Assembly: GCA_009922585.1 (NCBI GenBank)
Contig: RFVE01000001.1
Location: forward strand, 1-46,071
Length of the DNA: 46,071 bases
Source: Planctomycetia bacterium
Lineage (GTDB): Bacteria > Planctomycetota > Planctomycetia > Pirellulales > UBA1268
Reading direction: 5' to 3'
In this document: piece after piece, positions 14,162 to 32,862 of the stretch
How positions within the stretch are numbered: the first letter of the stretch is position 1
Layout: each line of letters opens with the position of its first letter
Program-made: the position numbers and the translations under genes
The notes under the pieces: generated by a model
Told to the model about the DNA's origin: nothing
Database searches by the model: none
What the model saw: only the letters and a program-made list of their open reading frames with translations

Positions 14162-14190
14162 GAGACAGTCGTTCGCTGTCTCAGCGAACG
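14162..14190. terminator. hairpin-forming sequence between convergent genes (possible bidirectional terminator)
   Basis: GAGACAG-tcgttcg-CTGTCTC (14162-14182), with the alternative pairing CGTTCGCTG-tct-CAGCGAACG (14170-14190). It overlaps the stop codon of the 2189-aa ORF and has no U-tract. Confidence 0.3.
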
Positions 14191-20750: not shown

Positions 20751-20767
20751 TGGCGCTCTCCCTCCTA
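20751..20767 (-). promoter_or_regulatory. translational-coupling junction: stop TAG of the 1263-aa ORF, GGAGGGAG Shine-Dalgarno, ATG of the 2189-aa ORF
   Basis: The minus strand reads TAGGAGGGAGAGCGCCAATG, with only 14 nt between the stop and the start. Confidence 0.5.
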
Positions 20768-23700
20768 TTCGGCGACGGAACGCTGGGGAGCGACCTCGGG
20801 AGCAGCTTGTGCCGAGGTGGGCTTGGTGTTGATCACGAGTGATTCATCGGGGGCGGCCCGCGTCACCGAATCGGGTCGGCGTTCATACCCCGAGAGAACC
20901 TCAGCAGCCAGCCGGGGGCCAAGCGGCCGAGCCGTCCGCCACCAGACTGAGACTCCCGCAATCGACGCCAACACAAGCCCCGGAACAGCCGCCTGCAGAA
21001 CAGTCAATGTGGCAAGTGGAACAAGTGCCATTCCGGCAATGAACGCCACCGCCAGCAGCCCGGCAAACTGACCAAGGAGCCGTTCCCGCAGCGACACCGC
21101 CAGCCCGACCAGCAGCGGGAGGCCACTGGACACGAGCACCAGCAACCATTGCGGCATCAGCATGATGCTGGCGGCGGCAGGAGCCCCCACATCGCAGTAC
21201 ACCAACCTTGCATTCATTCCTGCCGCCGGTGCCGCCACTAGCGCCTCTAATCGCTCCGCCAGCGCGTCGGAGCCAGCATTCCCGGCCAAAACCATGCCCG
21301 TGGCCTTTCGGTCTGCAGCAGCAGTCACCCAGGCTGCGAGTTCCTCTGCGGAAACCACCGGCGTCGGTCGAAAGCCTAGACTCGTCCAGCCCCAAGCCTG
21401 CTGGGCAGTCCATCCAGCAGGTCCCGCCAGCACGACGGCATCCGGCGGTGTCAACACCTCCCAGTAGACCCTCCTGTATAAGGTAGAGGCGGGGAGGCCG
21501 GATCGCTCGAGTGCAACTCTGTTCGGTAAAGAAAGCCGACCGATCGTCGGCCTGTTGGCCCGGGGCTGGCGTATTTCAATTTCAAGCAGATGGGTTCCAC
21601 CCGTGCGGTCGAGGTCGACCAGGAGACGACCGCTGGCATCATCGGCCACCTGCCACTCACCACCGTCAACCCGCACGCGGGCAGTGGTCTGCGTCATTGC
21701 CTCAGCCCCCGAGGCCAACTCCTTCGCGACCGGTAGAAACAGCGGCAGCCGACCTGCCGCTGTCGTGACAGCACATGTCCAATGATCAATCCGAAGCGTC
21801 TGGCGAATCAGCGTTTGTACCCAGGCCGCTTCCACCACAGTCTCACCGCGGACGTCCTCGCCGCGTCGGGAAATCGCCAGATCGATACGTGGCTGTTGCT
21901 GCACGGCGTTCCAGGTCCGGCCAAAGCCCTGTTGCTGCAGATCGCCCTCCCGGTTCCAGCGGTCGTCTCGCACGTCGACGTTAAAACCAACCGTCTCGGT
22001 CAGCGTGACCGATTCGCGACCGATCACCGCCGGCTGGGGCAGAAGCAGCGGCACCGAGACTGCAACGGTCGTTTCGTCTGGAATCTCCGGCAGTGGCTGA
22101 CGATAACGGATAACCAATTCCCCCATGCCGAGCAGCGGCTCGGTCAGGAGGGCCCTGATCGCCCGCTGCGGAGAAGTGGTTGTCGCTTCGCCATCGCCCG
22201 CTTCCGGCACAGCTGCCGGAGCGGCCGGTTCAGCTGGGCCAGGAAACGGCTCGGCGGCAACATCTGCGGCAACGACATCCGGCAGCAGGAGCTGGCCATT
22301 CTGCCGAATTTCGATGTCTGCCTCGTCCAGCACGGATTCGGGGACCACCCATTCGATGAACTCGAGCGGCACATTGGCCACATCCAGCCGCACCACCTGG
22401 CGGACAGCCAACGCAGTCGTCCCGATGTCGATTTGGGAGGCGACCGTGGCATCGACCTGACGATCAAGGAACCGACGGTTCGCCGCAAAAATTGCCTCAG
22501 TCGCCTCCACCCGATAAGTCATCCTGGGTACTTCACCGGCAACCTTGCCCTGCTGGACTGCGACCTGGCGGCTCATCCCTTCAATCAGCTCGTTGTCGGG
22601 AATGACTTCGATGTCACTGTCTGAGGTGATGGTGACATTCGCAGGCCCAACCAGATCGGCACGGGGCACAGGAGTCGTCCACCTGAGCAGGGTATTCACG
22701 CGATCGATCGGCCTGCTACAGCGGAGTTCAACAACTACATCTCCAGCAAGCGGCTGGAGAAAGGGCACCGAGACCTCACCCTCATCGACCGCTACCCGGG
22801 CGGTGTCAACAATGCCTGCCGGCCCGACGTCCTCAACTTCCCAGCCCGGAATCGCCAGCCGCACCCGTTCCGCCGCCACCCCGCGAATCGATGCCCGCAG
22901 TCGGATATCAACCTCAATCCGACTGCCACTGACGTGATAGCGATACTCCGGCTCGATGACCACGCGGCTCCGGCGTGGCTTCACCGTCAGGGGTAGCCGG
23001 GCCGGCTGCGAGTCGTAGGCAAAGGCTGCCACGAAGCCGGGTTGCTGCATGGCCACCGGTGGGTCAATACGTCGGTTCTCCGGCTGCGGCTCCCAGTCGA
23101 CCTGCCAGTCACCGTCGGCAATGACGCTCGTGCTGCCCCACTGCCGCCAGTCCGGAATATCGGCCACGCTGAACCCACCCACATCAAAGCTCTCCCGGCC
23201 GGCAGGATCGATCGCCCGTTCACAGGTCAATTCGACCATTGCCTTGCCCTCTCGAACATCATCGAGCCGTACCACCGCCACCGGCTGGTCCGCTGTGCCA
23301 CCCCGACGAATCAGACTTGCTGGCTGGCCAACCCGGCGCAGGACTGCCCGCGGTGGTAAAGCGATGGTAAGAGTCCGGCGATCGGCGGGCAGATTTGCGA
23401 GTTGCAGAACCGCATCGATCCGAGCCGTGCGACCGTCCACACGGACGACGCTTTCGGTTGTCACTTCGGTCAACTCAGCCGCCATCAGTGTCGCCGGTTC
23501 AGGATTTGTCAGCCGGATACGGGTCGGCCCGACCAGTCCTTCAACCGAAACCCGACTTCCGCCAGCGGCCTCCGGGCCGTCGTCCAGCGGCACCACTGCG
23601 GGGGCGAGCACTCGGGGCGCGAGGCTGACCTCGGGCTGTCGCCGCCAGGAATCGATTTCAAGCCGGGACCTGGCTGCCGCCGGCAGGGTCAGCGAGATAA

Positions 23701-24556
23701 GATCCCGGCGGTCGGTACCATCGACAGGGATCAGCCCCTCCAGGGTGATCGTCTGCCGCTCGGACTCACTCTCTGAAACTGGCGTCCCGGCTTCCCGCCC
23801 ATTCACCCAAGCCAGAAAGCCACCACTCTCGCCGCGGAAGGTCACGGGCCCGTCCGCCACTGCCGGCAGACGCTGGTCGGTGGCATCAGAGCTGGGCGTG
23901 ACTGGCGGCCTGTCGACCGTCAGGATCACTCGCCCGGCACCCGTCACCCGGGGCGGAGCTGTCAGCACCAGTTCGGAAAGCTTCAACGGCAGCATGACCC
24001 AGCCCGGGCGGGTCTGCCGGATGACCGCCTCTACTTCAGCGACAGCCGTCTGCCGATTGTCATCACGCGGTGGCATGATGACCCGCACCCGCACCTGCTC
24101 GAGGACCGCACCCGGTAGCTCCGGGAGCCCGGGTAGCCCTTCGCGAAGCCTGATCAGGTCGACAAAATCGCGGTACCGGAATCCGGGAACGGGAACCAGC
24201 CCCCCGGCATCGTCCTCTAAATAGTAAAGCTCCGGCTCAAGTTCTCGCACCCCAGCCGTCGCCGGCGGTCGCACTGGCTCCGCTGCCACGGCGACAGCCA
24301 GTGGCACCATGAGCCAAGCACAGAGCAGCCAGCCTGCCAGCAACTCGCACAGGGGCAGTCGGCAGAGCCTCCGCTGCCGGCGGGATGGGGGGCAATACAC
24401 GAGCAGTTGCCGATTTCTATGGTGTGAGAATTTTCCGATTGCGCAAACCGCTACCTCTTTGAACCTACCCCGCAGCAACCCGACCTGCCCAGCAAATTCC
24501 CCGAGGCCGGGCGGGGGCGGCTCCCGCCGCCGCGGAATGAGTCGGATGACCGGCAT
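20765..24556 (-). CDS. giant membrane-anchored envelope protein, unknown function (1263 aa, one module)
   Basis: Signal/anchor LLAGWLLCAWLMVPLAVAVAA/EP, a ~1030-aa ectodomain without recognisable motifs, and a C-terminal TM cluster (residues ~1132-1207). The true start is uncertain: the first ~55 residues are Arg/Pro-rich and may be non-coding. Confidence 0.8.
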   Translation of the reverse strand: MPVIRLIPRRREPPPPGLGEFAGQVGLLRGRFKEVAVCAIGKFSHHRNRQLLVYCPPSRRQRRLCRLPLCELLAGWLLCAWLMVPLAVAVAAEPVRPPATAGVRELEPELYYLEDDAGGLVPVPGFRYRDFVDLIRLREGLPGLPELPGAVLEQVRVRVIMPPRDDNRQTAVAEVEAVIRQTRPGWVMLPLKLSELVLTAPPRVTGAGRVILTVDRPPVTPSSDATDQRLPAVADGPVTFRGESGGFLAWVNGREAGTPVSESESERQTITLEGLIPVDGTDRRDLISLTLPAAARSRLEIDSWRRQPEVSLAPRVLAPAVVPLDDGPEAAGGSRVSVEGLVGPTRIRLTNPEPATLMAAELTEVTTESVVRVDGRTARIDAVLQLANLPADRRTLTIALPPRAVLRRVGQPASLIRRGGTADQPVAVVRLDDVREGKAMVELTCERAIDPAGRESFDVGGFSVADIPDWRQWGSTSVIADGDWQVDWEPQPENRRIDPPVAMQQPGFVAAFAYDSQPARLPLTVKPRRSRVVIEPEYRYHVSGSRIEVDIRLRASIRGVAAERVRLAIPGWEVEDVGPAGIVDTARVAVDEGEVSVPFLQPLAGDVVVELRCSRPIDRVNTLLRWTTPVPRADLVGPANVTITSDSDIEVIPDNELIEGMSRQVAVQQGKVAGEVPRMTYRVEATEAIFAANRRFLDRQVDATVASQIDIGTTALAVRQVVRLDVANVPLEFIEWVVPESVLDEADIEIRQNGQLLLPDVVAADVAAEPFPGPAEPAAPAAVPEAGDGEATTTSPQRAIRALLTEPLLGMGELVIRYRQPLPEIPDETTVAVSVPLLLPQPAVIGRESVTLTETVGFNVDVRDDRWNREGDLQQQGFGRTWNAVQQQPRIDLAISRRGEDVRGETVVEAAWVQTLIRQTLRIDHWTCAVTTAAGRLPLFLPVAKELASGAEAMTQTTARVRVDGGEWQVADDASGRLLVDLDRTGGTHLLEIEIRQPRANRPTIGRLSLPNRVALERSGLPASTLYRRVYWEVLTPPDAVVLAGPAGWTAQQAWGWTSLGFRPTPVVSAEELAAWVTAAADRKATGMVLAGNAGSDALAERLEALVAAPAAGMNARLVYCDVGAPAAASIMLMPQWLLVLVSSGLPLLVGLAVSLRERLLGQFAGLLAVAFIAGMALVPLATLTVLQAAVPGLVLASIAGVSVWWRTARPLGPRLAAEVLSGYERRPDSVTRAAPDESLVINTKPTSAQAAPEVAPQRSVAE

Positions 24557-24577
24557 GAACCGTTTTTTCGGTTTCTG

Positions 24578-25444
24578 TCAGACCGACGAGGGTTTGTCGG
24601 CAAGCGCCTCGTCCAACCCGGTGGCAACCAACCGGTTCGCGGCAGCAAGGAAGGCGGGCCGTTCCAGTGAAACCTCTTGGCGACGGGGAGTTCCGACCGG
24701 GTCGTCGGCATGGCGGCAGGGAATGACCACAGCCCCTGCCTCGCTGGCAATCAACAACCCGGCTGCAACGTCCCAGCAGGCAATTCGCCGCACCCAGAAA
24801 CCGTCGAGCCGACCAGCTGCAAGGTAGGCGAGATTGATTGCTGTCGAGCCCGTTCGTCGCACGGAATGGACCCTGGGAATGACGGCAAGAAAATCGGAGA
24901 CGGCCTGTGACTCCGCCGAAACGTGGGGAGGAAAGCTCACGGCAACGAGGGCATCGTTGAGGTCGAGAGGATCGGCGGTATGCAGTGCCATCCCGTCGAG
25001 CCTGGCGCCACCGCCCCTGATGGCAGTAAAACATTCGTCGGCGACCGGATCGTAGATCGCCCCAGCCAGCAGCCTGTCACCAACTGCTAACGCGACTGAC
25101 ACACAATAGGCTGGAAATCCATGGACGTAGTTACTGGTGCCATCGAGCGGATCGACCATCCAACGTAACGGCGGTACCTCCCGTTCGGCCTCCCCTTCTT
25201 CCCCGATGAAGCCGTGCTCGGGGAACCGGCCCAGCAGGATCTCGCGAATCGTTCGCTGGGCCGCGATATCGGCCTCGGTGACGAGATCCTTGGGGCCTTT
25301 CTTGGAAATACCGAACCGCCCACGCCAGTCCCTCAGCACCTCACCCCCTGCCCGGGCAGCAGTTTCGGCGGCATCGCCGAACTCCCTGAGTTCAGCCGCT
25401 GCGGGTTCGGTTTTGTCAGGTCCGCCGTTCGCTGCTTGTTGCAT
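24578..25444 (-). CDS. inositol monophosphatase family protein (SuhB/IMPase-like)
   Basis: FIGEEGE, WMVDPLDGTSNYVHG and WDVAAG motifs. The internal ATG at 25444 (MQQAANGG...) gives 288 aa; the track start at 25693 would overlap the divergent gene. Confidence 0.85.
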   Translation of the reverse strand: MQQAANGGPDKTEPAAAELREFGDAAETAARAGGEVLRDWRGRFGISKKGPKDLVTEADIAAQRTIREILLGRFPEHGFIGEEGEAEREVPPLRWMVDPLDGTSNYVHGFPAYCVSVALAVGDRLLAGAIYDPVADECFTAIRGGGARLDGMALHTADPLDLNDALVAVSFPPHVSAESQAVSDFLAVIPRVHSVRRTGSTAINLAYLAAGRLDGFWVRRIACWDVAAGLLIASEAGAVVIPCRHADDPVGTPRRQEVSLERPAFLAAANRLVATGLDEALADKPSSV

Positions 25445-25507
25445 GAATCTTCCTCGAGTATGCAGCGGTTTCAATCGCCGCGGCTGCATTACCCTAGATT
25501 CTACAAT

Positions 25508-26344
25508 ATGCTGCCGGATGCCATGACGCAGACCACGATCAGCAGCGGAGCAGCCACCGGGTTCACCTGGCATGCCCGCAAATCGACCGATCACTCCCGC
25601 CGCGATGCCGCCAGCAACACTGACCGGCTGAATGTTGAGATCGGTGACCTCAGCGGCTGGCTTGACCTGCACCGCCCCGAGCAGGGCATTCAACTCAGCG
25701 GGTGTAACGCCGCAGCCGAACTGCTGGCAGTGAGGCTACCCGACAGGCTTGCCAATCAATTCATCGATGGCTGGGTTCGCGGCGGCGACGCGGTCTCCAT
25801 CCACGAACCGCGGAATAGCCGCAGGCTTCGTGCCACGGCCCTGTGGCGGCTGGCGACAGGTCCGGCCGATCTCACTGTTGAACTGGTGCTGTCAGTTCAG
25901 ACCTCAGCCGTTCGCAGTGATGGAGCTATCGCTGTCGATTGCCGGTTGCCAGCGACTGAGGTCATTCCAGGCATCAGTACAGGCCAACAGCTGGAATGGC
26001 TACCGCCCATCCCCACCGCTGGCGTTACCCAACTGCCCTGGCGGCAACTCGCCAATGCTGCCGTACTCTGCCTCCTGTTTCGTCAGTCCCTTGCGGGCCG
26101 AAGTCTTGCCATCTGCGTACGGCGAGACGAGGGTCGCGAAGTCTCCTTGCAGAGGCGCACGCTGCCCGAACGCCCCGAGCCACCCAGCTTCACCCTCACG
26201 ACCTGGTTTTTCCCCACACTCATCGAGAAGGGTGTGCTGCATCGAAGCCGCCTCTCGGTCACCATCGGGAGTCCGGCAGATGATTTGGCATGGGCAGCAG
26301 CAGCAGCCCAGTCACTGGCCAGTCAGCCACCGCTTTTGCAGTAG
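25508..26344 (+). CDS. hypothetical cytoplasmic protein (278 aa)
   Basis: Coding-like third-position GC bias. No TM segment and no motif I recognise. The ATG at 25508 is chosen because the track start (25214) lies inside the divergent IMPase gene. Confidence 0.5.
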   Translation: MLPDAMTQTTISSGAATGFTWHARKSTDHSRRDAASNTDRLNVEIGDLSGWLDLHRPEQGIQLSGCNAAAELLAVRLPDRLANQFIDGWVRGGDAVSIHEPRNSRRLRATALWRLATGPADLTVELVLSVQTSAVRSDGAIAVDCRLPATEVIPGISTGQQLEWLPPIPTAGVTQLPWRQLANAAVLCLLFRQSLAGRSLAICVRRDEGREVSLQRRTLPERPEPPSFTLTTWFFPTLIEKGVLHRSRLSVTIGSPADDLAWAAAAAQSLASQPPLLQ

Positions 26345-26479
26345 CGGAAATCACGGTGACGGCGGTAGAGTCCTGAACAAGGATGGACTTAAACCGGGCA
26401 AACAGGCGAAACCTTGCCAGTAGATGCAGCCTGGTCTGGCAGCGATCGTCCCACCGCCCGAATCGCCGAGAGACTGCCC

Positions 26480-27682
26480 ATGTTTGATCTTATTTTCGCC
26501 TCTAATCCTACCATTGACTGCCCAATTGCTGAGCCGGAAGGCATCCCCGAGCCGCTCGGCCTCCGGCTCAGACAAGCACCACTGACCGCTCTGCGGCAAG
26601 CCTACCAGCTGGCCCGCGAGCATGAGGCCAGTGGCGTTGTTCTCTGCGGCAGCGTCATCAACCCGCTGCGGGCAAGTCCTGCTCAGGTGATTGCCCTTCG
26701 CCAACTCGTCCTCGAAGCAGCGGCCGACGGCTGCGACACCATTTGGGTCACGACCAATCCGACAGCCCCCCGCGAGGTACAGCGGATGCTGGGGGAACCT
26801 GCCGGTCTGAGCTTTGCCACGCCACTCAATCCCTGGACGGCGACCATTCGCTCGACCACAGTTGAACTCTGGGCAACCGCCACCCCAGCCGACGCTGAAC
26901 GTGCCGTAGCCACCGAATCGCCCGCGGCGTTGCACCGTCGGATCCTGATTGGCTGTGAGTCTGAACACGACCGGACGGCCCGCCAGACCATCCCACCAGC
27001 AGTGCTGAGCCGGCCAGACACCCTTGTGATTTGGGCCACCGCGACCGCCGGTAGCCTGCCACCCGGAGTCCTCCGCTTGCCACCCCTCCAGGCCCGAGCA
27101 CGAAATCTGCCACCTGATGAAGGCTGTCACGGGCTGCGTCTCTATCAGCCACCAACAGACAACGACGAGGCCGCCGTCCAAACGGCAGCGGCCAGCCGTC
27201 AACTTGCCAGCTGGCAGTCGCTGCCAGCTGCGGCAGTAATCTGGCGGACGATCTGCATCGAGTCTGCTGAAGGCGACCATACTCAACTTGCTGAAAGCCT
27301 CTGGCGGGCCCTTGAACCGCTGGCGCAACAACCGCCGCCAGCCACTACCGCCCCGTTGACCTTGATTGACTGCCAGGTTTCGTGCGGTACGAGCGTGGAA
27401 CGTCGGATCGAGGTCGGCGCTGCTGCTGAGGCGACGCTCCGCCTGCTGCGTGAACGCTGTCGCACGGCGACCGGAGACCTCTGGTGCGAAGCCGTTGCTG
27501 CCGACGCCGATGAGTCGCTTGCTCCCCTCGGCCACAGTCGCTCGGGGGGACGCCCCGGCGCCAGCAACTCATTCACCTCGGCACTGGCCGACATCGTGAC
27601 CGAGCGGGAAGCGACCGGCCAGGGTGTGCCGCTCGACCGGGAAGCTGCCTGGCTCGCCCTCGAACTGCTCGCGGCCGACTGA
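26480..27682 (+). CDS. YhaO/SbcD-like calcineurin-type phosphoesterase homologue with substituted metal-ligand motifs (putative pseudo-nuclease)
   Basis: 400 aa, placed immediately upstream (19-nt gap) of the Rad50-like ATPase, as in yhaO-yhaN/sbcD-sbcC pairs. By-eye alignment to the canonical motifs: LIFASNPTID vs FIHxADxHLD; VVLCGSVIN vs vvIaGDlfD; IWVTTNPT vs vyxIxGNHD; PPLQARARNLPPDEGCHGLRLY vs GNxQGRhxxExGxKGxxLV. The ATG at 26480 (MFDLIF) is preferred to the track start at 26414. Confidence 0.55.
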   Translation: MFDLIFASNPTIDCPIAEPEGIPEPLGLRLRQAPLTALRQAYQLAREHEASGVVLCGSVINPLRASPAQVIALRQLVLEAAADGCDTIWVTTNPTAPREVQRMLGEPAGLSFATPLNPWTATIRSTTVELWATATPADAERAVATESPAALHRRILIGCESEHDRTARQTIPPAVLSRPDTLVIWATATAGSLPPGVLRLPPLQARARNLPPDEGCHGLRLYQPPTDNDEAAVQTAAASRQLASWQSLPAAAVIWRTICIESAEGDHTQLAESLWRALEPLAQQPPPATTAPLTLIDCQVSCGTSVERRIEVGAAAEATLRLLRERCRTATGDLWCEAVAADADESLAPLGHSRSGGRPGASNSFTSALADIVTEREATGQGVPLDREAAWLALELLAAD

Positions 27683-27701
27683 ACTTTGTGGAGAAAAGCC
27701 A

Positions 27702-30700
27702 ATGCACATTGAACGGCTGGAGATTGAACAGTTTGGCGGGCTCGAAGATGTCACCATCGATGGGCTCGGCCGGGGCGTGCAGGTTCTGCACGGCACGAAC
27801 GAAATCGGAAAGACCTCACTGCTGGAATTTGTCCGGGCAATCTTCTTCGGCTTCGAAGGCCTCTTCCGCCGTGGCGTGCTTGACCCGCAGCGGCCCTGCA
27901 GCGGACGGTTGGTGGTGACAATCGGCCGGGGACCGCGGGGAGAACGCGAGCGGCACCGGTTCCTGATTGAACGCCGGCATGAAGGACCTGAAATCGCCAG
28001 CCTTACCCGGGCCAGCTACGAGGACGGCATTGTCGGCCTCGGTGGTGACGAAGGCGACCTCGTGACCATTGAGCGACTCGATAACCACCACGATGCCGAC
28101 CAACGGATCTACCTCCAGGACCTCGTCGGAGATATCGACGAAGCCACCTTCACCAACGTGATGGCCTTTGGGCTCGACGAACTGCATGAACTACGAACCC
28201 TCGAGCCGGAGGGCTGCGGAAGTCGGCTTTACGAACTTGCCAACGGTCTTGATCGCTCGCGGGTTGCTGGCACGCTTCGCCATATCGAAGAGGCGATCGC
28301 CCGGCTGGAGCAGGGAGACGGCGATGCCAACGAGCCACCCCTGAAAGCACTTCAACGACAGCGGCAGGAACTCCGCGAGCTGATCGAGACCGATACCGCC
28401 GCCACGATTGGTGACCTGTTTGTCGAACAGACACGGTTGGAACGCGAGGCCGATGGCCTGGCGGCAGCGGTTGACCGGGCCAGGCGGTCCGAGGGACTGA
28501 TCCGGGCAGCGGTGCCAGCAGGTGAACTTCACAGCACCTGGAGAAGGCTCACCGCCGAGTTGGAGGCCCTGAAGCTTGTCACCCTTGTCCACCCCGACTA
28601 CGACGGCTGGCGACAGGATGTCAAAGGGCGGCGCCGAGCCGCCCGCCTGGCCGAGAAGCGGCGGCAGGAACGGCGACGGCTGGCGCGGGAACTGGCTGAC
28701 GTCCCTGCCGAGAACGTGATTTGGGAGAAGCGCTCGGCCATTTCGGCACTCAATGATGAGCGGCCGCAACTGGAGCGACTGGTTGCCGATGCCAGCCGGG
28801 CCGAGGCCCATGCCAGACTGGCCGCCCGCAGGTTTGGCGAGCAAGTTGGGCTCTGCGGTCTCGCCAAACTTGTTCAGGTCGATCAGCTTGATGCCGCTGA
28901 CGACGGACTTGGTGTGTTGCTGCCGGAAGGGCTCTCGCTCTCCTTCGGGCCCCTGCGGAACCGGGCCCGGCGGTGCAAGGCGGCATCCCGCGGAGTGGCG
29001 AAGGCCCGCGCCCGACTTTCGCGTGCAAAAAAAAGGCTGCAGCAGGCCGAAGGCCGGGTTCAGGGGGCCGAGGCATCACTTGGCGGCCTGAGCCTGACTG
29101 CCGCCATCGAGGCGGCCACCGAACAGGCGACGGCGACTCGAAAACGCCTGGCCATCGGAAAGCGAGTGGAAGAACTGCAGGCAACAACCGCTCAACTGGA
29201 GCGGGAGATGGGTCGACAGCTTGAGGGGCAAGTGCTGCCGATGAACTGGCTACTCGGCCTTGGCGGTGTCTTTGTCGTCGGCGCTGGCATGCTGCTCTCA
29301 GGACTGCTGCTGCCGGCGGTGGTCACCGGACCGCTGGCGTACGTGATCGCAGCCCTCGGGCTTGCGGGGACCGGCGTGGCCTCGGTGATGACCTGGTCGC
29401 TTGACAAGTCAGCAGGAGTCAAGCTCGACGAGCTCAGACGGCAGCACGACCTCGCCCAGCAGCAGCAGGCCGAGGCGGTCAGCCAGTGCGAGACTCTCGA
29501 CCGGACAATCGCCAAGGCGGCCCGCCAACTCGCCATCACGGCCACCGACGATGTTCCACGGTTCGAGCATGGTGGTGATCTTGAACGACGGGCCGCCCAG
29601 GCTGACGCCGAGATCGCCCGGCTGGAACAGCTGGCTGGCCGGGAGGGTACCCTGCCCGTTTTCAACGAACGGGTTGAAGCTGCTCGGCAGGGATTGAAAC
29701 GAGCCATTGGCCGCCGCAAATCGGCGGTGGCCCGCTGGAAAAAGTCACTCGAACAGCGGGGGCTGCCAGCCACCCTCAGCCCGGCTGAGGTTTGGCGAAT
29801 CGGCACCCATCGCCATGAACTGCTGGCCCTTGATGATGACCGCCGTCGGCTTTCGGACGAGGCTCGGCAGAAGCGGGAAGAACTCACGGCCGCTGCCCGT
29901 CGCATCGACGCAGTGATGGTTGAATGCAACCTCGTGCCCGAGGGAACGCCACTTGACCATCTCCAGCAGCTCGACGAATTGCTCGATCAGCAGCGGCGGA
30001 TTCACGACCAGCGGCAGTCCCTCAGTCGAAAACTTGACCGATCCCGGCTGCGTCACCGGCAGGCGATCCGGCAACTCCGGGCCTGCGACCGTGGCCTCCG
30101 GGCCTGGCTGGAACGCTGGGAAGTTGAAACCGAAGAGGACTTTCTGGCCCAGGTTGATCGCCGCCCGGCCTTTGACCAGCTCGAACGAGATACTGCCATT
30201 GCCGAACGCAGCTGGCTCGACGCACGGGCCCGATTTGCTGAACCCGATCTGCTCGACGAATGGCTCGGTGATCAGTCTGAACTGCCACTGCAGCAGAGGC
30301 TGGAAGATGCCGAAGCAGCTTCCACCGAATTAACGCAGACACTCGCCAGCCGCCGGCAACAGCTCGACCGTCTCACCGAGCGAATCGCACTGGCTGAAGT
30401 TGATGACGACCGTGAGCGAAAGCAGCGACAGCTCGCTCGGATCGAGGCAGCGATTGCCGAGCACGAGCGGCGGTCGCGGCTGCTCCACCGCACGCACGAT
30501 CTACTGGAAAAAACCCGAGCAGAGGTCGCTCGCCACCATCAGCCAGCGGCGCTGCAGGAGGCGTCACACTGGCTCAAACAGCTGACCGAGGGGCGTTACG
30601 TCAGGATTACCACAGCCGTCGACGAGGCACGACTCGATGTCCACGATGCATCCGGTACGGTCTGGAATCCTGAGCGGCTCAGCCGAGGCACCCGTGAACA

Positions 30701-31070
30701 GGTCTTTCTGGCCCTGCGGTTGGCCCTGGTTCGCAGCCTGCACGAGCACGGCGTCGTGCTGCCGGTCGTGATGGATGATGCCCTGGTCAACTTTGACGAT
30801 ACCCGCGCCCGAGCAGCGGCCCGCACGCTGGTCGCATTCATGGCTGATCAGGCGGGGGATCGGCAGATGCTCGTGCTCACCTGCCACGCCCATGTTGCCG
30901 CATTGTTTGAAGACGCGAAGGCAACTGTTCGCTTCCTCGGGCCGGCACCACCGCGACGAACCGTTCCGACACGTCTGACAACGGCTCCGGCCCCAACACC
31001 CCGGGTGTCCTCCGAGTCCTGGCCGGCCGAAGAGTTCTTTTTTGGTTCAGGCCAAGGCCGAAACCAGTAG
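27702..31070 (+). CDS. Rad50/SbcC/YhaN-type AAA ATPase with central membrane hairpin (1122 aa)
   Basis: N-terminus MHIERLEIEQFGGLEDVTI...LHGTNEIGKTSLLE (Walker A). Long Arg/Glu/Leu/Gln coiled-coil arms. Two hydrophobic helices at residues ~513-566. C-terminal signature LSRGTREQ, Walker B LPVVMDDALVNFD and LTCH. The ATG at 27702 is chosen over the track start at 27624. Confidence 0.85.
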   Translation: MHIERLEIEQFGGLEDVTIDGLGRGVQVLHGTNEIGKTSLLEFVRAIFFGFEGLFRRGVLDPQRPCSGRLVVTIGRGPRGERERHRFLIERRHEGPEIASLTRASYEDGIVGLGGDEGDLVTIERLDNHHDADQRIYLQDLVGDIDEATFTNVMAFGLDELHELRTLEPEGCGSRLYELANGLDRSRVAGTLRHIEEAIARLEQGDGDANEPPLKALQRQRQELRELIETDTAATIGDLFVEQTRLEREADGLAAAVDRARRSEGLIRAAVPAGELHSTWRRLTAELEALKLVTLVHPDYDGWRQDVKGRRRAARLAEKRRQERRRLARELADVPAENVIWEKRSAISALNDERPQLERLVADASRAEAHARLAARRFGEQVGLCGLAKLVQVDQLDAADDGLGVLLPEGLSLSFGPLRNRARRCKAASRGVAKARARLSRAKKRLQQAEGRVQGAEASLGGLSLTAAIEAATEQATATRKRLAIGKRVEELQATTAQLEREMGRQLEGQVLPMNWLLGLGGVFVVGAGMLLSGLLLPAVVTGPLAYVIAALGLAGTGVASVMTWSLDKSAGVKLDELRRQHDLAQQQQAEAVSQCETLDRTIAKAARQLAITATDDVPRFEHGGDLERRAAQADAEIARLEQLAGREGTLPVFNERVEAARQGLKRAIGRRKSAVARWKKSLEQRGLPATLSPAEVWRIGTHRHELLALDDDRRRLSDEARQKREELTAAARRIDAVMVECNLVPEGTPLDHLQQLDELLDQQRRIHDQRQSLSRKLDRSRLRHRQAIRQLRACDRGLRAWLERWEVETEEDFLAQVDRRPAFDQLERDTAIAERSWLDARARFAEPDLLDEWLGDQSELPLQQRLEDAEAASTELTQTLASRRQQLDRLTERIALAEVDDDRERKQRQLARIEAAIAEHERRSRLLHRTHDLLEKTRAEVARHHQPAALQEASHWLKQLTEGRYVRITTAVDEARLDVHDASGTVWNPERLSRGTREQVFLALRLALVRSLHEHGVVLPVVMDDALVNFDDTRARAAARTLVAFMADQAGDRQMLVLTCHAHVAALFEDAKATVRFLGPAPPRRTVPTRLTTAPAPTPRVSSESWPAEEFFFGSGQGRNQ

Positions 31071-31081
31071 CAAACCCGCGG

Positions 31082-31558
31082 CTATGACAGCCCTGGCAGC
31101 CGGTCACGGACGAGGCTCAGGTAGCGGGTCCGCATACCGCCGAGCAGAATGCCAAGGTAGGCATTCCCCCCAAGCGAAAGAAACAGCGCCACAAGCGTGC
31201 CGATCAGAAGCGACCACGGGCGTTCCTCAGCTGGCGATTCCTCAGCCGGCGATTCTGCGGCGGTCATGGTTCCCGCCGCGGTTGGCCGGGGTCGAGCCGC
31301 AGCCTCGATGACGCTCCGCTCCACCGTCGCCGGCCAACGATCAGCGACGTAAATGCAGACACGGCGGACATCCCGGCTGTCGGCCGGCACATCGCTGGAG
31401 AATGTATAGGGACTGCGGCCGGCGACCAGATCAGGTTCGACCCGAACGAGATAGTCCCCACCGCCTGTCTCTGCTGGAACGTAGGCCGTTTCGATACCCG
31501 TGGCCAGCATGGCAGCGGTCAGACAGAGGAATTTGAGCAACATCGTTATGCCTTTCAA
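31082..31558 (-). CDS. small secreted/membrane-anchored hypothetical protein
   Basis: Signal peptide MLLKFLCLTAAMLATG, an AESPAEESPAEE repeat, and a C-terminal TM segment WSLLIGTLVALFLSLGGNAYLGILLGG. Convergent with the ATPase gene. Confidence 0.45.
   Translation of the reverse strand: MKGITMLLKFLCLTAAMLATGIETAYVPAETGGGDYLVRVEPDLVAGRSPYTFSSDVPADSRDVRRVCIYVADRWPATVERSVIEAAARPRPTAAGTMTAAESPAEESPAEERPWSLLIGTLVALFLSLGGNAYLGILLGGMRTRYLSLVRDRLPGLS
31224..31257. repeat. 15-nt tandem repeat (about 2.3 copies) inside the small ORF
   Basis: TTCCTCAGCTGGCGA / TTCCTCAGCCGGCGA / TTCT..., which encodes the SPAEE repeat on the minus strand. Confidence 0.5.
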
Positions 31559-31599
31559 CGCTGGGGTCGGCCAGTCAGCCTCCTACCGATGATTCTATT

Positions 31600-32682
31600 T
31601 CACCCTCGGCTGGGCGGTTCATGCAACTCGGCTGTGGCCACAGCCGCCTGACGGTCTTCGGCGAGCGTGCCAAGCTCAGTCTGAAGCATCGTCAGGGCTG
31701 CCTGCAGAAAGGCCACGGCAATGGGGCCGACGAAGATGCCGATCGGGCCGAGCGCACCAACCCCACCCAGCACACTGAGCAGAGCCAGCAGCGGGTGGAG
31801 CTTTGACTGACCGTGAAGGACGATCGGCTTGATCACATTGTCGATCGTTGAGACGACCGACACCCCCCAGAGAGCGAGCCCGACAGCAGCCCAGGTATCT
31901 TTGACAAAAAATAGCAGGTAGAGACTCGCCCCACCCCAGACCGCCGCCGCGCCGACAAAGGGAATCATCGCCGCAAAGAAGGTGAGCAGGGTGAGCAGAA
32001 AAACCGTTTCGAGCCCCGCGAAGTAGAAACCAAAGCCAGCCAGTACAGCCTGGACAATGGCTGCCAAAAGCGTCGAACTGACAACCGCCCGACTGATCTC
32101 CTCAAACTCCTCGAGCAACTGCCATTGATACCGCTGATCAAGCGGGATCAGCCGGGTGACCGCGGCGAACATCCGCGAACCATCGGCAAGAAAATAAAAC
32201 AGTGAAACTGTCATGACGATCACGCCAATGATCAGCTTGATGATGACAACCGGGGCACCAGTGGCAATCGGACCGAACAGATCCTCTGCCAGCTTTCGCA
32301 ACTCGGCGTTGACGTCATCTGCGGTAAGGTGAAGCCCGGTCGCCTCGTTGAACGAGGTGATGAATCCATCAAGGATCGCCGGGTCAAGCCGCAGGCCGGA
32401 TGGACTTTTGAGCATGGCCACTGCATCACCGCCTGCACGGATCACCAGTAACGCCAGCGGCACCAACACGATCAGCAGCACAAAACCGGTGGTCAGCCCG
32501 GCCGCCACCCAGTCGGGACTTCGTAAGGCCTGCCGCAGCCAGCGGTAGAGCGGTCCAAAGATCACGACCAGCATGGCCGCCAACAGCAGCGGCAGTAGGA
32601 AGCCCGCCATCACCCGGAGCGACAGCAGGCCAAAGACCGCAATCAGGCCGAGAATAACACCGAGAGAAATCAGGCGGGCCAT
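31600..32682 (-). CDS. AI-2E family transporter (PerM/UPF0118)
   Basis: Polytopic. FFAAMIPFVGAAAVWGGASLYLLF and IDNVIKPIVLHGQSKLHPLLALLSVLGGVGALGPIGIFVGP are typical of the family. The internal ATG at 32682 (MARLISLGVILG) is preferred to the track start at 32859. Confidence 0.85.
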   Translation of the reverse strand: MARLISLGVILGLIAVFGLLSLRVMAGFLLPLLLAAMLVVIFGPLYRWLRQALRSPDWVAAGLTTGFVLLIVLVPLALLVIRAGGDAVAMLKSPSGLRLDPAILDGFITSFNEATGLHLTADDVNAELRKLAEDLFGPIATGAPVVIIKLIIGVIVMTVSLFYFLADGSRMFAAVTRLIPLDQRYQWQLLEEFEEISRAVVSSTLLAAIVQAVLAGFGFYFAGLETVFLLTLLTFFAAMIPFVGAAAVWGGASLYLLFFVKDTWAAVGLALWGVSVVSTIDNVIKPIVLHGQSKLHPLLALLSVLGGVGALGPIGIFVGPIAVAFLQAALTMLQTELGTLAEDRQAAVATAELHEPPSRG

Positions 32683-32862
32683 AAGTGCAGACGTCGCTTC
32701 CCGAGGAAAAGGATGTGACCGGCGAAAATCCCGATTGTAGGCAACCCCTCGTGGAATCGGGAACAACGGCTGTTTTCGGGTCGAACCCGACCGCCTCTCC
32801 GTGCCATACTCGCCGCTGCCGCAGCAGCCCGCCGCCTCCCGCCCCTCAATCTCTTGCAATCC

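What the first reader, a model, noticed from the sequence alone, without database searches (positions are those of the whole stretch)
26480..27682. SbcD/YhaO-sized partner protein in which every metallophosphoesterase metal-ligand motif looks substituted
Seen by eye alignment against the canonical calcineurin-like motifs. Motif I (FIHxADxHLD) is LIFASNPTID here, with D to N and H to T. Motif II (GDlfD) is GSVIN, with D to S and D to N. Motif III (GNHD) is TNPT, with H to P and D to T. The flanking hydrophobic beta-strand pattern is retained (VVLCG, TIWVTT, RILIGCESEH, TLVIWATA). So is the C-terminal capping-domain entry PPLQARARNLPPDEGCHGLRLY (compare GNxQGRxxxExGxKGxxLV). Inference: this is a structurally conserved but catalytically dead Mre11/SbcD-family protein that still partners an ATPase with intact Walker A, Walker B and signature motifs.
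Basis: inference. Interest (0 to 1): 0.7.

Follow-up and report, generated by a model that had tools for sequence, protein, structure and literature searches.

The report
Nuclease-motif-less Mre11/SbcD homologue with ATPase
This gene encodes a well-conserved relative of the DNA-end-cutting enzyme Mre11/SbcD that keeps the enzyme's shape and its ATPase partner but has lost almost every residue that would hold the catalytic metals, so a group of uncultured planctomycete bacteria appears to run this repair-type machine without its own nuclease.

Summary
It has no Pfam, NCBIfam or PDB sequence hit on its own.

It is nevertheless a true Mre11/SbcD homologue of the YhaO/SbcF subtype:
- Its family profile aligns full-length to canonical YhaO-like metallophosphoesterases (hhalign 99.1%, E 1e-18).
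- An AlphaFold model (pLDDT 90) matches almost only Mre11/SbcD structures (top 46 hits; best E 4e-8).

In the aligned ligand columns the protein reads N-x-T, G-S, T-N-P-T, with no His at motifs IV-VI. Among 200 family members, none has His at motifs I or III or Asp at motif II.

The gene is not decaying. dN/dS is 0.12-0.20, and relatives occur in 148 species genomes, all Planctomycetota/Pirellulales MAGs among the 80 kept. In 81 of 83 loci it sits 28-120 nt upstream of a ~1120-aa YhaN/SbcE-type ATPase. That ATPase has family-standard Walker A, signature, Walker B and H-loop motifs, and a hydrophobic hairpin instead of a zinc hook.

Nearest relatives in Pirellulales are half-eroded, suggesting stepwise loss.

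This is a new variant of a known kind, of moderate interest.

The parts
26480..27682 (+). Gene for a 400-aa YhaO/SbcF-type Mre11/SbcD homologue that lacks the metal-ligand motifs (NBS31248.1, annotated as hypothetical)
   Evidence: ORF and translation. AF2 model pLDDT 90.2, pTM 0.88. Foldseek top 46 hits all Mre11/SbcD. hhalign to canonical YhaO-like proteins 99.1%, E 1.2e-18. dN/dS 0.12-0.20.
26489..26518 (+). Remnant of motif I (aa 4-13, LIFASNPTID). Canonical D-x-H is N9-P10-T11 here. Family consensus is FAFDPAID.
   Evidence: Among 200 relatives, position 11 is A198/T1/V1 (never His) and position 9 is D161/N35/S4.
26636..26662 (+). Remnant of motif II (aa 53-61, VVLCGSVIN). Canonical G-D-x-x-D is G57-S58-V-I-N61 here.
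   Evidence: Position 58 is R147/S30/E8/Q4/K3/A3 (never Asp).
26738..26764 (+). Remnant of motif III (aa 87-95, TIWVTTNPT). Canonical G-N-H-D is T92-N93-P94-T95 here.
   Evidence: Position 94 is P72/A50/T45/S11/M5/Q4 among the six commonest residues (no His among those listed).
26936..27049 (+). Strands that carry motifs IV-VI in canonical enzymes (aa 153-190: RRILIGCESEH ... TLVIWATATA). No His falls in the aligned columns.
   Evidence: W185 is invariant. The canonical 'LLH' and 'GHVH' align to gaps (hhalign) or to S/A-T-x-T (MAFFT).
27080..27145 (+). Entry to the capping domain (aa 201-222, PPLQARARNLPPDEGCHGLRLY), homologous to the canonical 'QGR..EtGprGC.lV.V'
   Evidence: hhalign columns. 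Q204 is invariant; R206 and C216 are >=90% conserved.
27572..27676 (+). Two C-terminal helices (aa 365-399, 'SFTSALADIV...REAAWLALELL'), among the most conserved segments of the protein. Candidate Rad50-binding helix-loop-helix.
   Evidence: Helices H365-378 and H384-399. Invariant S364, F365, A370, R387, W391, A393-L396. Aligns to the C-terminal helix of canonical YhaO-like proteins. Binding to the ATPase is inferred.
27702..31070 (+). Gene for a 1122-aa YhaN/SbcE-type Rad50-like ATPase (NBS31249.1). It starts 19 nt after the target's stop codon, with no terminator between them.
   Evidence: Pfam AAA_27, AAA_23 and SMC_N. IMG name 'uncharacterized protein YhaN'. Adjacent in 81 of 83 loci. Terminator scan. 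Homology to partners of canonical and intermediate nucleases.
27792..27818 (+). Walker A / P-loop of the ATPase (aa 31-39, GTNEIGKTS)
29232..29393 (+). Hydrophobic central segment (aa 511-564), long enough for a two-helix membrane hairpin. It sits mid-protein, where Rad50/SbcC carry the CxxC zinc hook. No CxxC occurs anywhere in the protein.
   Evidence: Kyte-Doolittle windows and CxxC search. A hydrophobic central stretch is present in all five partner ATPases examined, shorter in L001. This matches the 'unique, hydrophobic, insoluble central domain' of B. subtilis SbcE: PMC2811018.
30678..30893 (+). C-terminal half of the ATPase head: signature LSRGTREQ (aa 993-1000), Walker B LPVVMDD (1020-1026), H-loop TCHAH (1060-1064)

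Best explanation
The gene encodes a naturally motif-less member of the Mre11/SbcD family, of the YhaO/SbcF subtype.

Shown:
- It keeps the phosphoesterase fold, the capping domain and conserved C-terminal helices.
- It lacks the Asp/His residues that hold the two catalytic metals, and the catalytic His of motif III.
- It is under purifying selection.
- It is almost always encoded directly upstream of a YhaN/SbcE-type Rad50-like ATPase whose nucleotide-binding motifs match those of ATPases partnered with motif-complete nucleases.

Inferred:
- The protein no longer cuts DNA. It serves as the structural subunit of the complex, dimerising, docking on the ATPase and shaping or gating its DNA-binding groove.
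- The complex is probably anchored in the membrane by the ATPase's central hydrophobic hairpin. It would carry out the nuclease-independent jobs of Mre11-Rad50-type machines: ATP-dependent DNA binding, clamping, tethering or sensing.
- The former active-site loops were remodelled rather than left to drift. New, highly conserved sequences replace the motifs. In most family members an Arg sits at the position of the metal-bridging Asp, next to leftover carboxylates.
- Loss looks stepwise. The nearest relatives, also in Pirellulales, keep motifs I, II and VI but have lost III and V.
For: Homology and fold:
- hhalign of the family against canonical YhaO-like proteins: 99.1%, E 1.2e-18, 375 columns.
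- The family profile reaches PF00149-bearing proteins at E 1e-12 to 1e-3.
- The canonical YhaO profile hits only this ORF in the window (E 3.2e-7).
- AF2 model pLDDT 90.2. Foldseek top 46 PDB hits are all Mre11/SbcD, E 3.8e-8 to 4e-5, TM 0.41-0.61.

Ligand loss:
- Column tables.
- In 200 relatives there is no His at the motif I or III columns and no Asp at the motif II column.

Still functional:
- 40 invariant columns.
- dN/dS 0.12-0.20.
- 148 species genomes encode a relative.

Partnership:
- The ATPase lies 28-120 nt downstream in 81 of 83 loci, and the other two loci lack room for it.
- The gap in the window is 19 nt, with no terminator.
- The C-terminal helices are among the most conserved parts of the protein.

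ATPase intact by family standard.

Stepwise erosion:
- Intermediate-grade relatives from Pirellulales and canonical relatives also pair with AAA_27 ATPases.

Remodelling rather than drift:
- P10 92%, A11 99%, R58 74%; S66, P67 and Q69 are invariant.
- A D9-R58-D61-D/E93 combination is found in 144 of 200 members. The window's clade has N9-S58-N61-N93.

Background on B. subtilis SbcE/SbcF: a role in double-strand-break repair and competence, polar foci, and a hydrophobic central domain (PMC2811018).
Against: - No activity was measured. Inactivity rests on the established requirement for motif I-VI ligands in calcineurin-like phosphoesterases and Mre11.
- D13 and D/E160 persist near the former site in nearly all members. 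Most members keep three further carboxylates, so a non-canonical single-metal site cannot be excluded for the majority clade.
- Model coordinates could not be inspected, so the pocket geometry and the Arg58 salt-bridge idea are untested.
- Physical interaction with the ATPase is inferred from gene order and conservation only.
- Membrane insertion of the hairpin is inferred from hydropathy.
- I could not check whether the same genomes also carry a motif-complete SbcD/YhaO.
- The D/R versus N/S pattern is confounded by phylogeny, because it separates one clade from another.
Confidence: 0.72

Rival explanations
1. The protein is still a hydrolase, using a non-canonical site. This could be a carboxylate-only Mg2+/Ca2+ site built from the leftover acidic residues, or a new site elsewhere (for example around the invariant Cys85, Cys302, Arg308 and Arg309).
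For: - Most family members keep D9, D13, D61, D/E93 and D160.
- The former active-site loops are strongly conserved rather than drifting.
- Several invariant polar residues lie outside the old motifs.
Against: - In the window protein three of these carboxylates are Asn (N9, N61, N93).
- The bridging position is Ser or Arg, never Asp.
- All His ligands and the catalytic His are absent in all 200 members.
- An Arg at the bridging position would compete with metal binding (inference).
- No known metallophosphoesterase works without these ligands (established knowledge).
Confidence: 0.08
2. The complex still processes DNA, but the cutting is done in trans. Either a separate nuclease is recruited by the dead subunit or the ATPase, or a motif-complete SbcD/YhaO paralogue elsewhere in the genome does it. 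The dead subunit would then be a regulatory or adaptor paralogue.
For: - Partially eroded and canonical YhaO/YhaN-type pairs also exist in Pirellulales and other bacteria.
- One MAG carries two family loci (L041 and L054), so paralogy occurs.
- One intermediate-grade locus has a UvrD helicase directly upstream.
Against: - The dead subunit has its own dedicated, co-transcribed ATPase in 81 of 83 loci.
- No nuclease gene is conserved next to the pair.
- The conserved upstream gene folds as a beta-supersandwich (galactose-mutarotase / YidC-P1-like), not a nuclease.
- No second copy lies in the 46-kb window.
- Whole genomes could not be searched.
Confidence: 0.12
3. The pair has left DNA metabolism. 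It would be a membrane-anchored coiled-coil ATPase with a scaffold subunit, used for a membrane or envelope task in planctomycetes.
For: - The ATPase has a central hydrophobic hairpin.
- Loss of the nuclease removes the one DNA-specific chemistry.
- The neighbours are an AI-2E transporter, a glycosyltransferase and an inositol monophosphatase.
Against: - The hydrophobic hairpin is also present in partners of motif-complete nucleases and in B. subtilis SbcE, which acts in double-strand-break repair and competence. It is therefore not specific to the dead lineage.
- The neighbouring genes look like general clade synteny, not a functional module.
- The ATPase head is highly conserved relative to DNA-repair-type relatives.
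Confidence: 0.07
4. The ORF is a decaying pseudogene or a chance ORF in GC-rich DNA.
For: - There are no Pfam, NCBIfam or PDB sequence hits.
- Long spurious ORFs overlap it on the other strand, as is usual at 64% GC.
Against: - 135 homologues, with 40 invariant columns.
- dN/dS 0.12-0.20.
- A confident fold prediction.
- Intact ORFs in 148 species.
Confidence: 0.01

Closest known systems
Bacillus subtilis YhaO/SbcF with YhaN/SbcE (Krishnamurthy et al. 2010, PMC2811018)
   Same: - A ~400-aa SbcD-like subunit is encoded directly upstream of a ~1000-aa AAA_27 SMC-like ATPase.
- The ATPase has a hydrophobic central domain and no CxxC hook.
- There is full-length profile homology to YhaO-like proteins, including the domains after the capping domain.
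   Different: - YhaO-like proteins carry the complete D-x-H / GD / GNHD / H / GH-x-H motif set (alignment A2).
- This family has none of the His ligands and no bridging Asp.
- The family is restricted to uncultured Planctomycetota.
E. coli SbcCD and archaeal/eukaryotic Mre11-Rad50
   Same: - The fold of the nuclease and capping domains (Foldseek E 4e-8 to 4e-5, TM 0.41-0.61).
- Operon partnership with a coiled-coil ABC-type ATPase.
- C-terminal helices in the position of the Rad50-binding domain.
   Different: - No di-metal ligands.
- The partner has a hydrophobic hairpin instead of a zinc hook.
- Walker B is followed by Asp, not Glu.
- Sequence identity to solved Mre11/SbcD structures is only 8-12%.
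Engineered nuclease-dead Mre11 alleles (yeast mre11-H125N, mouse Mre11-H129N; from my own knowledge, not checked here)
   Same: The catalytic motif III His is lost while complex formation is kept. These alleles show that Mre11-Rad50 has nuclease-independent roles such as tethering, signalling and end-joining.
   Different: - Those are single laboratory substitutions that leave the metal site in place.
- Here six of the seven ligand columns, plus the catalytic His, are substituted in nature. The change is fixed in a whole lineage, and the loops have been remodelled.
Inactivated calcineurin-like phosphoesterase domains used as scaffolds: B-subunits of eukaryotic DNA polymerases alpha/delta/epsilon (e.g. 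Dpb2; PMC7308368 came up in the search but was not read) and retromer Vps29. The claims in this row are from my own knowledge.
   Same: The metallophosphoesterase fold is retained under selection after loss of the metal ligands, and it serves as a protein-protein interaction module. The archaeal counterpart (PolD DP1) is an active Mre11-like exonuclease.
   Different: These belong to different branches of the superfamily and have different partners. None is an Mre11/SbcD-type subunit paired with a Rad50-like ATPase.

Membership tests
Calcineurin-like metallophosphoesterase superfamily (PF00149) | The alpha/beta sandwich phosphoesterase fold | tested here: met
   AF2 model pLDDT 90.2. Foldseek hits are Mre11/SbcD plus the metallophosphoesterase TT1561 (1uf3) at prob 1.00.
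Calcineurin-like metallophosphoesterase superfamily (PF00149) | A sequence match to the Pfam model at its gathering threshold | tested here: not met
   No PF00149 hit at E<=10 for this protein or any of the 45 aligned members. Homology is visible only profile-to-profile or through intermediates.
Calcineurin-like metallophosphoesterase superfamily (PF00149) | Metal-ligand motifs D-x-H, G-D, G-N-H-D/E, H, G-H, G-x-H | tested here: not met
   The window protein reads N-x-T, G-S, T-N-P-T, with no His at IV-VI. Across 200 relatives there is no His at I or III and no Asp at II.
Mre11/SbcD family | A nuclease-fold domain followed by a capping domain | tested here: met
   Foldseek alignments of 326-511 columns to Mre11/SbcD chains. 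hhalign covers the 'QGR..E.G..GC' capping entry.
Mre11/SbcD family | A gene adjacent to and co-oriented with a Rad50/SbcC-type coiled-coil ATPase | tested here: met
   81 of 83 loci, gap 28-120 nt. 19 nt in the window.
Mre11/SbcD family | A C-terminal helix-loop-helix that binds the base of the Rad50 coiled coil | tested here: inconclusive
   Two C-terminal helices are predicted and are among the most conserved segments. No complex model or binding test was possible.
Mre11/SbcD family | Mn2+-dependent exo/endonuclease activity | not testable with these tools
   Needs biochemistry. The sequence argues against it.
YhaO/SbcF - YhaN/SbcE subtype | Full-length homology to YhaO-like proteins (~400-430 aa), including the regions after the capping domain | tested here: met
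   hhalign 99.1%, E 1.2e-18, 375 aligned columns spanning query profile columns 41-446 and template columns 3-418.
YhaO/SbcF - YhaN/SbcE subtype | A partner ATPase of the AAA_27/YhaN type with a hydrophobic central domain and no CxxC zinc hook | tested here: met
   Pfam AAA_27 E 3.8e-7. IMG name YhaN. Hydrophobic aa 511-564 and no CxxC. The same holds in partners of canonical nucleases. Literature description in PMC2811018.
YhaO/SbcF - YhaN/SbcE subtype | Partner ATPase motifs intact: Walker A, signature LSxGT, Walker B, H-loop | tested here: met
   GTNEIGKTS, LSRGTREQ, LPVVMDD and TCHAH are near-identical to those of partners of canonical and intermediate nucleases.

The most novel reading that the evidence does not exclude
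The former catalytic pocket has been rebuilt into a non-catalytic binding or latch surface. It would be formed by the conserved FAFDPAIDRP, LCGR.LDP.RASPAQ and RMLGEP.GL loops. In most members an Arg side chain would take the place of the metals, held by the leftover carboxylates. The resulting complex would be a membrane-anchored, nuclease-free Rad50-like DNA clamp or tether specific to a Pirellulales lineage. It might hold or sense DNA at the membrane (uptake, segregation or end protection) rather than resecting it.
Probability: 0.15. Interest if true: 0.8.

Novelty: new variant of a known kind. Interest (0 to 1): 0.55.

Why it matters
Which Mre11-Rad50-type functions need the nuclease, and which need only the ATP-driven clamp and scaffold, has mostly been studied with engineered point mutants. 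Here a bacterial lineage has made the separation itself:
- The nuclease ligands are gone and the pocket has been remodelled.
- Both the scaffold subunit and the ATPase are kept under purifying selection across 148 species genomes.

That makes this a natural test case for nuclease-independent roles of this class of machine, and for the poorly understood, apparently membrane-associated YhaN/YhaO (SbcE/SbcF) branch.

It also matters for annotation:
- The dead family is invisible to Pfam and NCBIfam and is labelled 'hypothetical'.
- Its half-eroded Pirellulales relatives are labelled 'exonuclease SbcCD subunit D' although they lack motifs III and V.

Limits: the carriers are uncultured, the parent family is barely characterised, and inactivity is inferred.

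Tried and rejected
- **Single-sequence searches.** The target found nothing in Pfam, NCBIfam (E<=10), PDB phmmer or PADLOC. Member-by-member Pfam scans of 45 relatives gave only noise. This is why the gene is unannotated, and it is not evidence against homology.
- **ATPase versus PDB sequences.** phmmer gave no hit at E<=0.01.
- **Defence-system reading.** The ATPase gives generic ABC-head hits (LmuB E 1e-10, PtuA, GajA N-terminal ~45 aa). The pair is embedded in conserved housekeeping synteny across 35-93% identity. I therefore rejected a mobile defence island.
- **Replacement nuclease in the operon.** The conserved upstream gene (25610-26341) was modelled (pLDDT 92). It is a beta-supersandwich like the YidC P1 domain and galactose mutarotase, not a nuclease.
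- **Promoter and terminator scan.** Uninformative.
- **Literature searches.** Searches for YhaN/YhaO, SbcE/SbcF, natural catalytically inactive Mre11, and inactivated calcineurin-like domains found no description of such a family. The library is incomplete, so this is weak evidence of novelty.
- **Pseudogene reading.** Rejected.
Full report
**1. What is at the coordinates**

Window 26480-27682 (+) is an intact ORF running from ATG to TGA, 400 codons. NCBI calls the same product NBS31248.1, 'hypothetical protein', from a Planctomycetia MAG.

Nineteen bases after the stop codon, a 1122-aa ORF begins (27702-31070). No terminator-like site lies between the two genes.

**2. Is it really an Mre11/SbcD-type protein?**

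On its own the sequence matches nothing. There was no hit in Pfam, NCBIfam, PDB sequences or PADLOC, even at E<=10.

A search of 5.8 billion proteins found 135 homologues. All are unannotated, none has a Pfam domain, and those with names come from Planctomycetota. An alignment of 45 of them has 40 invariant columns.

Four lines of evidence tie the family to Mre11/SbcD.

- **Profile against PDB sequences.** E. coli SbcD comes out on top.
- **Exhaustive HMMER search.** The profile was scored against 1.84 billion representatives. Beyond the family itself, it found ~400-430-aa proteins at E 1e-12 to 1e-3. Seven of ten of these that I scanned carry PF00149 Metallophos.
- **Profile-profile comparison.** hhalign of the family against 28 motif-complete YhaO-like proteins gives 99.1% probability and E 1.2e-18 over 375 columns. 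The alignment runs from the first strand to the last helix. The canonical profile hits only this ORF in a six-frame translation of the window (E 3.2e-7).
- **Predicted structure.** An AlphaFold2 model built on the family alignment is confident (pLDDT 90.2, pTM 0.88). Its top 46 Foldseek hits in the PDB are all Mre11 or SbcD, from T. maritima, M. jannaschii, P. furiosus, S. pombe, human and E. coli. E-values range from 3.8e-8 to 4e-5 and TM-scores from 0.41 to 0.61.

The fold assignment is therefore secure.

**3. The ligand columns**

I used the canonical relative P0171 as reference (D-L-H-L-D, G-D-V-F-D, G-N-H-D, L-L-H, G-H-V-H).

| Motif | Canonical | Window protein |
|---|---|---|
| I | D-x-H-x-D | N9-P-T11-I-D13 |
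| II | G-D-x-x-D | G57-S58-V-I-N61 |
| III | G-N-H-D | T92-N93-P94-T95 |
| IV | H | Ser (MAFFT) or gap (hhalign) |
| V/VI | G-H-x-H | A-T-x-T (MAFFT) or gap (hhalign) |

I then examined 200 non-redundant family members, drawn from the protein hits plus ORFs in 83 loci.

- The motif I His column is A198/T1/V1.
- The motif II Asp column is R147/S30/E8/Q4/K3/A3.
- The motif III His column is P/A/T/S/M/Q.
- Only a handful of stray His residues fall near the motif V/VI region.

The only ligand retained in the window protein is the motif III Asn (N93). That column is D109/N37/E35 in the family, so its retention here is incidental.

**4. It is not decaying, and the old pocket was remodelled**

Against five relatives (93% to 60% amino-acid identity), Nei-Gojobori dN/dS is 0.12-0.20 for this gene and 0.06-0.13 for the ATPase.

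The former motif loops are among the best conserved parts of the family, but with a new consensus:

- D(L/I)(V/I)FAFDPAIDRP, with P10 at 92% and A11 at 99%;
- LCGR.LDP.RASPAQ, with S66, P67 and Q69 invariant;
- RMLGEP.GL, with R102, E106, P107, G109 and L110 invariant.

In 144 of 200 members the site reads D9 / R58 / D61 / D-or-E93. That places an Arg at the position of the Asp that bridges the two metals in active enzymes, surrounded by leftover carboxylates. In the window's own clade the charges are gone together: N9 / S58 / N61 / N93.

The guanidinium may fill the former metal site in the majority clade, and the window clade may have neutralised the whole cluster. The pattern separates clades, so it is confounded by phylogeny and is not independent covariation.

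**5. The partner**

The downstream protein matches Pfam AAA_27 and AAA_23 at its N-terminus and SMC_N at its C-terminus. IMG names it 'uncharacterized protein YhaN'. Its features are:

- Walker A GTNEIGKTS (aa 31-39);
- signature LSRGTREQ (993-1000);
- Walker B LPVVMDD (1020-1026);
- H-loop TCHAH (1060-1064);
- no CxxC anywhere;
- a strongly hydrophobic 54-residue central stretch (aa 511-564), long enough for a two-helix membrane hairpin where Rad50/SbcC have the zinc hook.

The ATPases next to a motif-complete relative (L085) and next to intermediate relatives (L087, L088) show the same features where the printed excerpts cover them. This includes Asp rather than Glu after Walker B in L085 and L087. 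The window ATPase is 33% identical over 629 residues to the L087 partner (E 5e-56). It is 38% identical over the C-terminal head to the L085 partner (E 5e-27).

This architecture matches the published description of B. subtilis SbcE (YhaN). That protein has a unique, hydrophobic, insoluble central domain and no CxxC. It is encoded next to the SbcD-like YhaO/SbcF, acts in double-strand-break repair and competence, and forms polar foci (PMC2811018).

The ATPase gene follows the target at 28-120 nt in 81 of 83 related loci. The two exceptions end before there is room for it. So 'still partners an intact ATPase' holds at the level of gene order, conservation and motifs. Physical binding is inferred. 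The two C-terminal helices (aa 365-399) are among the most conserved segments and lie where Mre11 carries its Rad50-binding helices.

**6. Distribution and origin**

A scan of one genome per GTDB species found relatives in 148 genomes. The 80 loci kept are all MAGs of uncultured Planctomycetota, mostly labelled Pirellulales. A few carry obviously wrong labels.

The nearest non-family relatives form an intermediate grade. They keep motif I (D-x-H), motif II (G-D) and the motif VI His. They have G-x-x-D for GNHD, H or Y at motif IV, and G-G for G-H at motif V. These are also from Pirellulales, and some are annotated 'exonuclease SbcCD subunit D'. They sit directly upstream of AAA_27 ATPases, in one case with a UvrD helicase in front.

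Deep-branching members of the dead family, such as P0129 (D-x-R, G-D), bridge the two grades. Fully canonical relatives pair with AAA_27 ATPases too.

The simplest history is stepwise erosion of the metal site within a vertically inherited YhaO/YhaN-type pair.

**7. How it most likely works**

Shown: the fold, the ligand loss, purifying selection, the conserved operon and the family-standard ATPase motifs.

Inferred: the protein is a non-catalytic structural subunit. In Mre11-Rad50 machines the Mre11 dimer holds the two ATPase heads, contributes to DNA binding and gates the complex between resting and engaged states. Engineered nuclease-dead alleles keep complex formation and the tethering and signalling roles (established knowledge, not checked here).

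By analogy, this complex would bind, clamp or tether DNA in an ATP-dependent manner without resecting it. It would probably do so at the membrane, through the ATPase hairpin. The strongly conserved remodelled pocket suggests that it now serves as an interaction surface.

I put 0.72 on 'non-catalytic scaffold partner of a functional YhaN-type ATPase'. I am much less sure of the specific cellular role.

**8. Rivals**

- **Non-canonical hydrolase.** Leftover carboxylates and invariant Cys/Arg residues elsewhere leave this open. However, the window protein has Asn at three of those positions and the family has no His ligand anywhere (0.08).
- **Nuclease supplied in trans, or by a live paralogue.** This could not be tested genome-wide. 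The conserved upstream gene is a beta-supersandwich, not a nuclease. No second copy lies in the window (0.12).
- **Repurposed away from DNA.** The membrane hairpin is shared with DNA-repair relatives, so it is not specific evidence (0.07).
- **Pseudogene.** Refuted (0.01).

**9. Comparison, novelty and score**

The protein works like, and descends from, YhaO/SbcF-YhaN/SbcE, a branch of Mre11-Rad50/SbcCD. It fails the defining catalytic-motif test of the metallophosphoesterase superfamily while meeting the fold, domain-order and partner tests.

Precedents for scaffold-only calcineurin-like folds exist, namely the B-subunits of eukaryotic replicative polymerases and Vps29 (from my own knowledge). 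I found no description of a naturally ligand-less Mre11/SbcD-type subunit paired with its ATPase. The literature library is incomplete, so this is weak evidence.

I rate it a new variant of a known kind, with interest 0.55. It is a clean natural separation-of-function case in an important machine. Its value is limited because the carriers are uncultured, the parent family is poorly understood, and inactivity is inferred rather than measured.

Noticed in passing
L087:6001-7230, L088:6001-7281, and proteins P0154, P0157, P0161, P0190, P0235: A second group of YhaO-like proteins, placed in Pirellulales by the source names available, is half-eroded. Motifs I (D-x-H), II (G-D) and the motif VI His are kept. 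GNHD has become G-x-x-D, and the motif V G-H has become G-G. One member (P0235) is annotated by NCBI as 'exonuclease SbcCD subunit D' and several by JGI as SbcD/Mre11-type. They may also be nuclease-compromised.
   Followed up: partly
window 25610-26344 (+); public gene calls start near 25460 (294 aa): A conserved gene with no Pfam hit lies just upstream of the target in about 70 of 83 loci. Its AF2 model (pLDDT 92) is a beta-supersandwich resembling the YidC periplasmic P1 domain and galactose mutarotase. It is not a nuclease. Any link to the pair is unclear and may be plain synteny.
   Followed up: yes
window 31010-31050 (ATPase aa ~1104-1117, 'SESWPAEEFFFGSG'): After a low-complexity linker, the ATPase ends in a short conserved tail, W-x-AEE-F/Y-(F-F-G). 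The tail recurs in distant family partners (L001, L002) and in the partner of an intermediate-grade nuclease (L087, 'VEWSAEEFEGE'). It may be a docking peptide.
   Followed up: no
window 14181-20750 (-) and 20765-24556 (-): Two adjacent giant ORFs (2189 aa and 1263 aa) have no Pfam domain. Genes of the same size and position (2172 aa and 1213 aa) occur in a relative with only ~50% identity in the target (L002/L003).
   Followed up: no
L041 and L054 (contigs JBEIQP010000062.1 and JBEIQP010000008.1, same MAG): One MAG carries two separate loci of the dead family, each with its own downstream ATPase. This is either a paralogous duplication or a mixed bin.
   Followed up: no
window 26351-27535 (-) and other antisense ORFs within 22000-34000: Long ORFs overlap the real genes on the opposite strand (for example 394 aa antisense to the target). 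This is typical of 64% GC DNA. I treated them as spurious.
   Followed up: no
L004, L021 and several other loci: Several contigs carrying this Planctomycetota-specific pair are labelled 'uncultured Chitinophagaceae', 'Candidatus Kuenenia' or 'Planctomicrobium piriforme' in their records. Some of these labels are likely taxonomic mislabels of MAGs.
   Followed up: no
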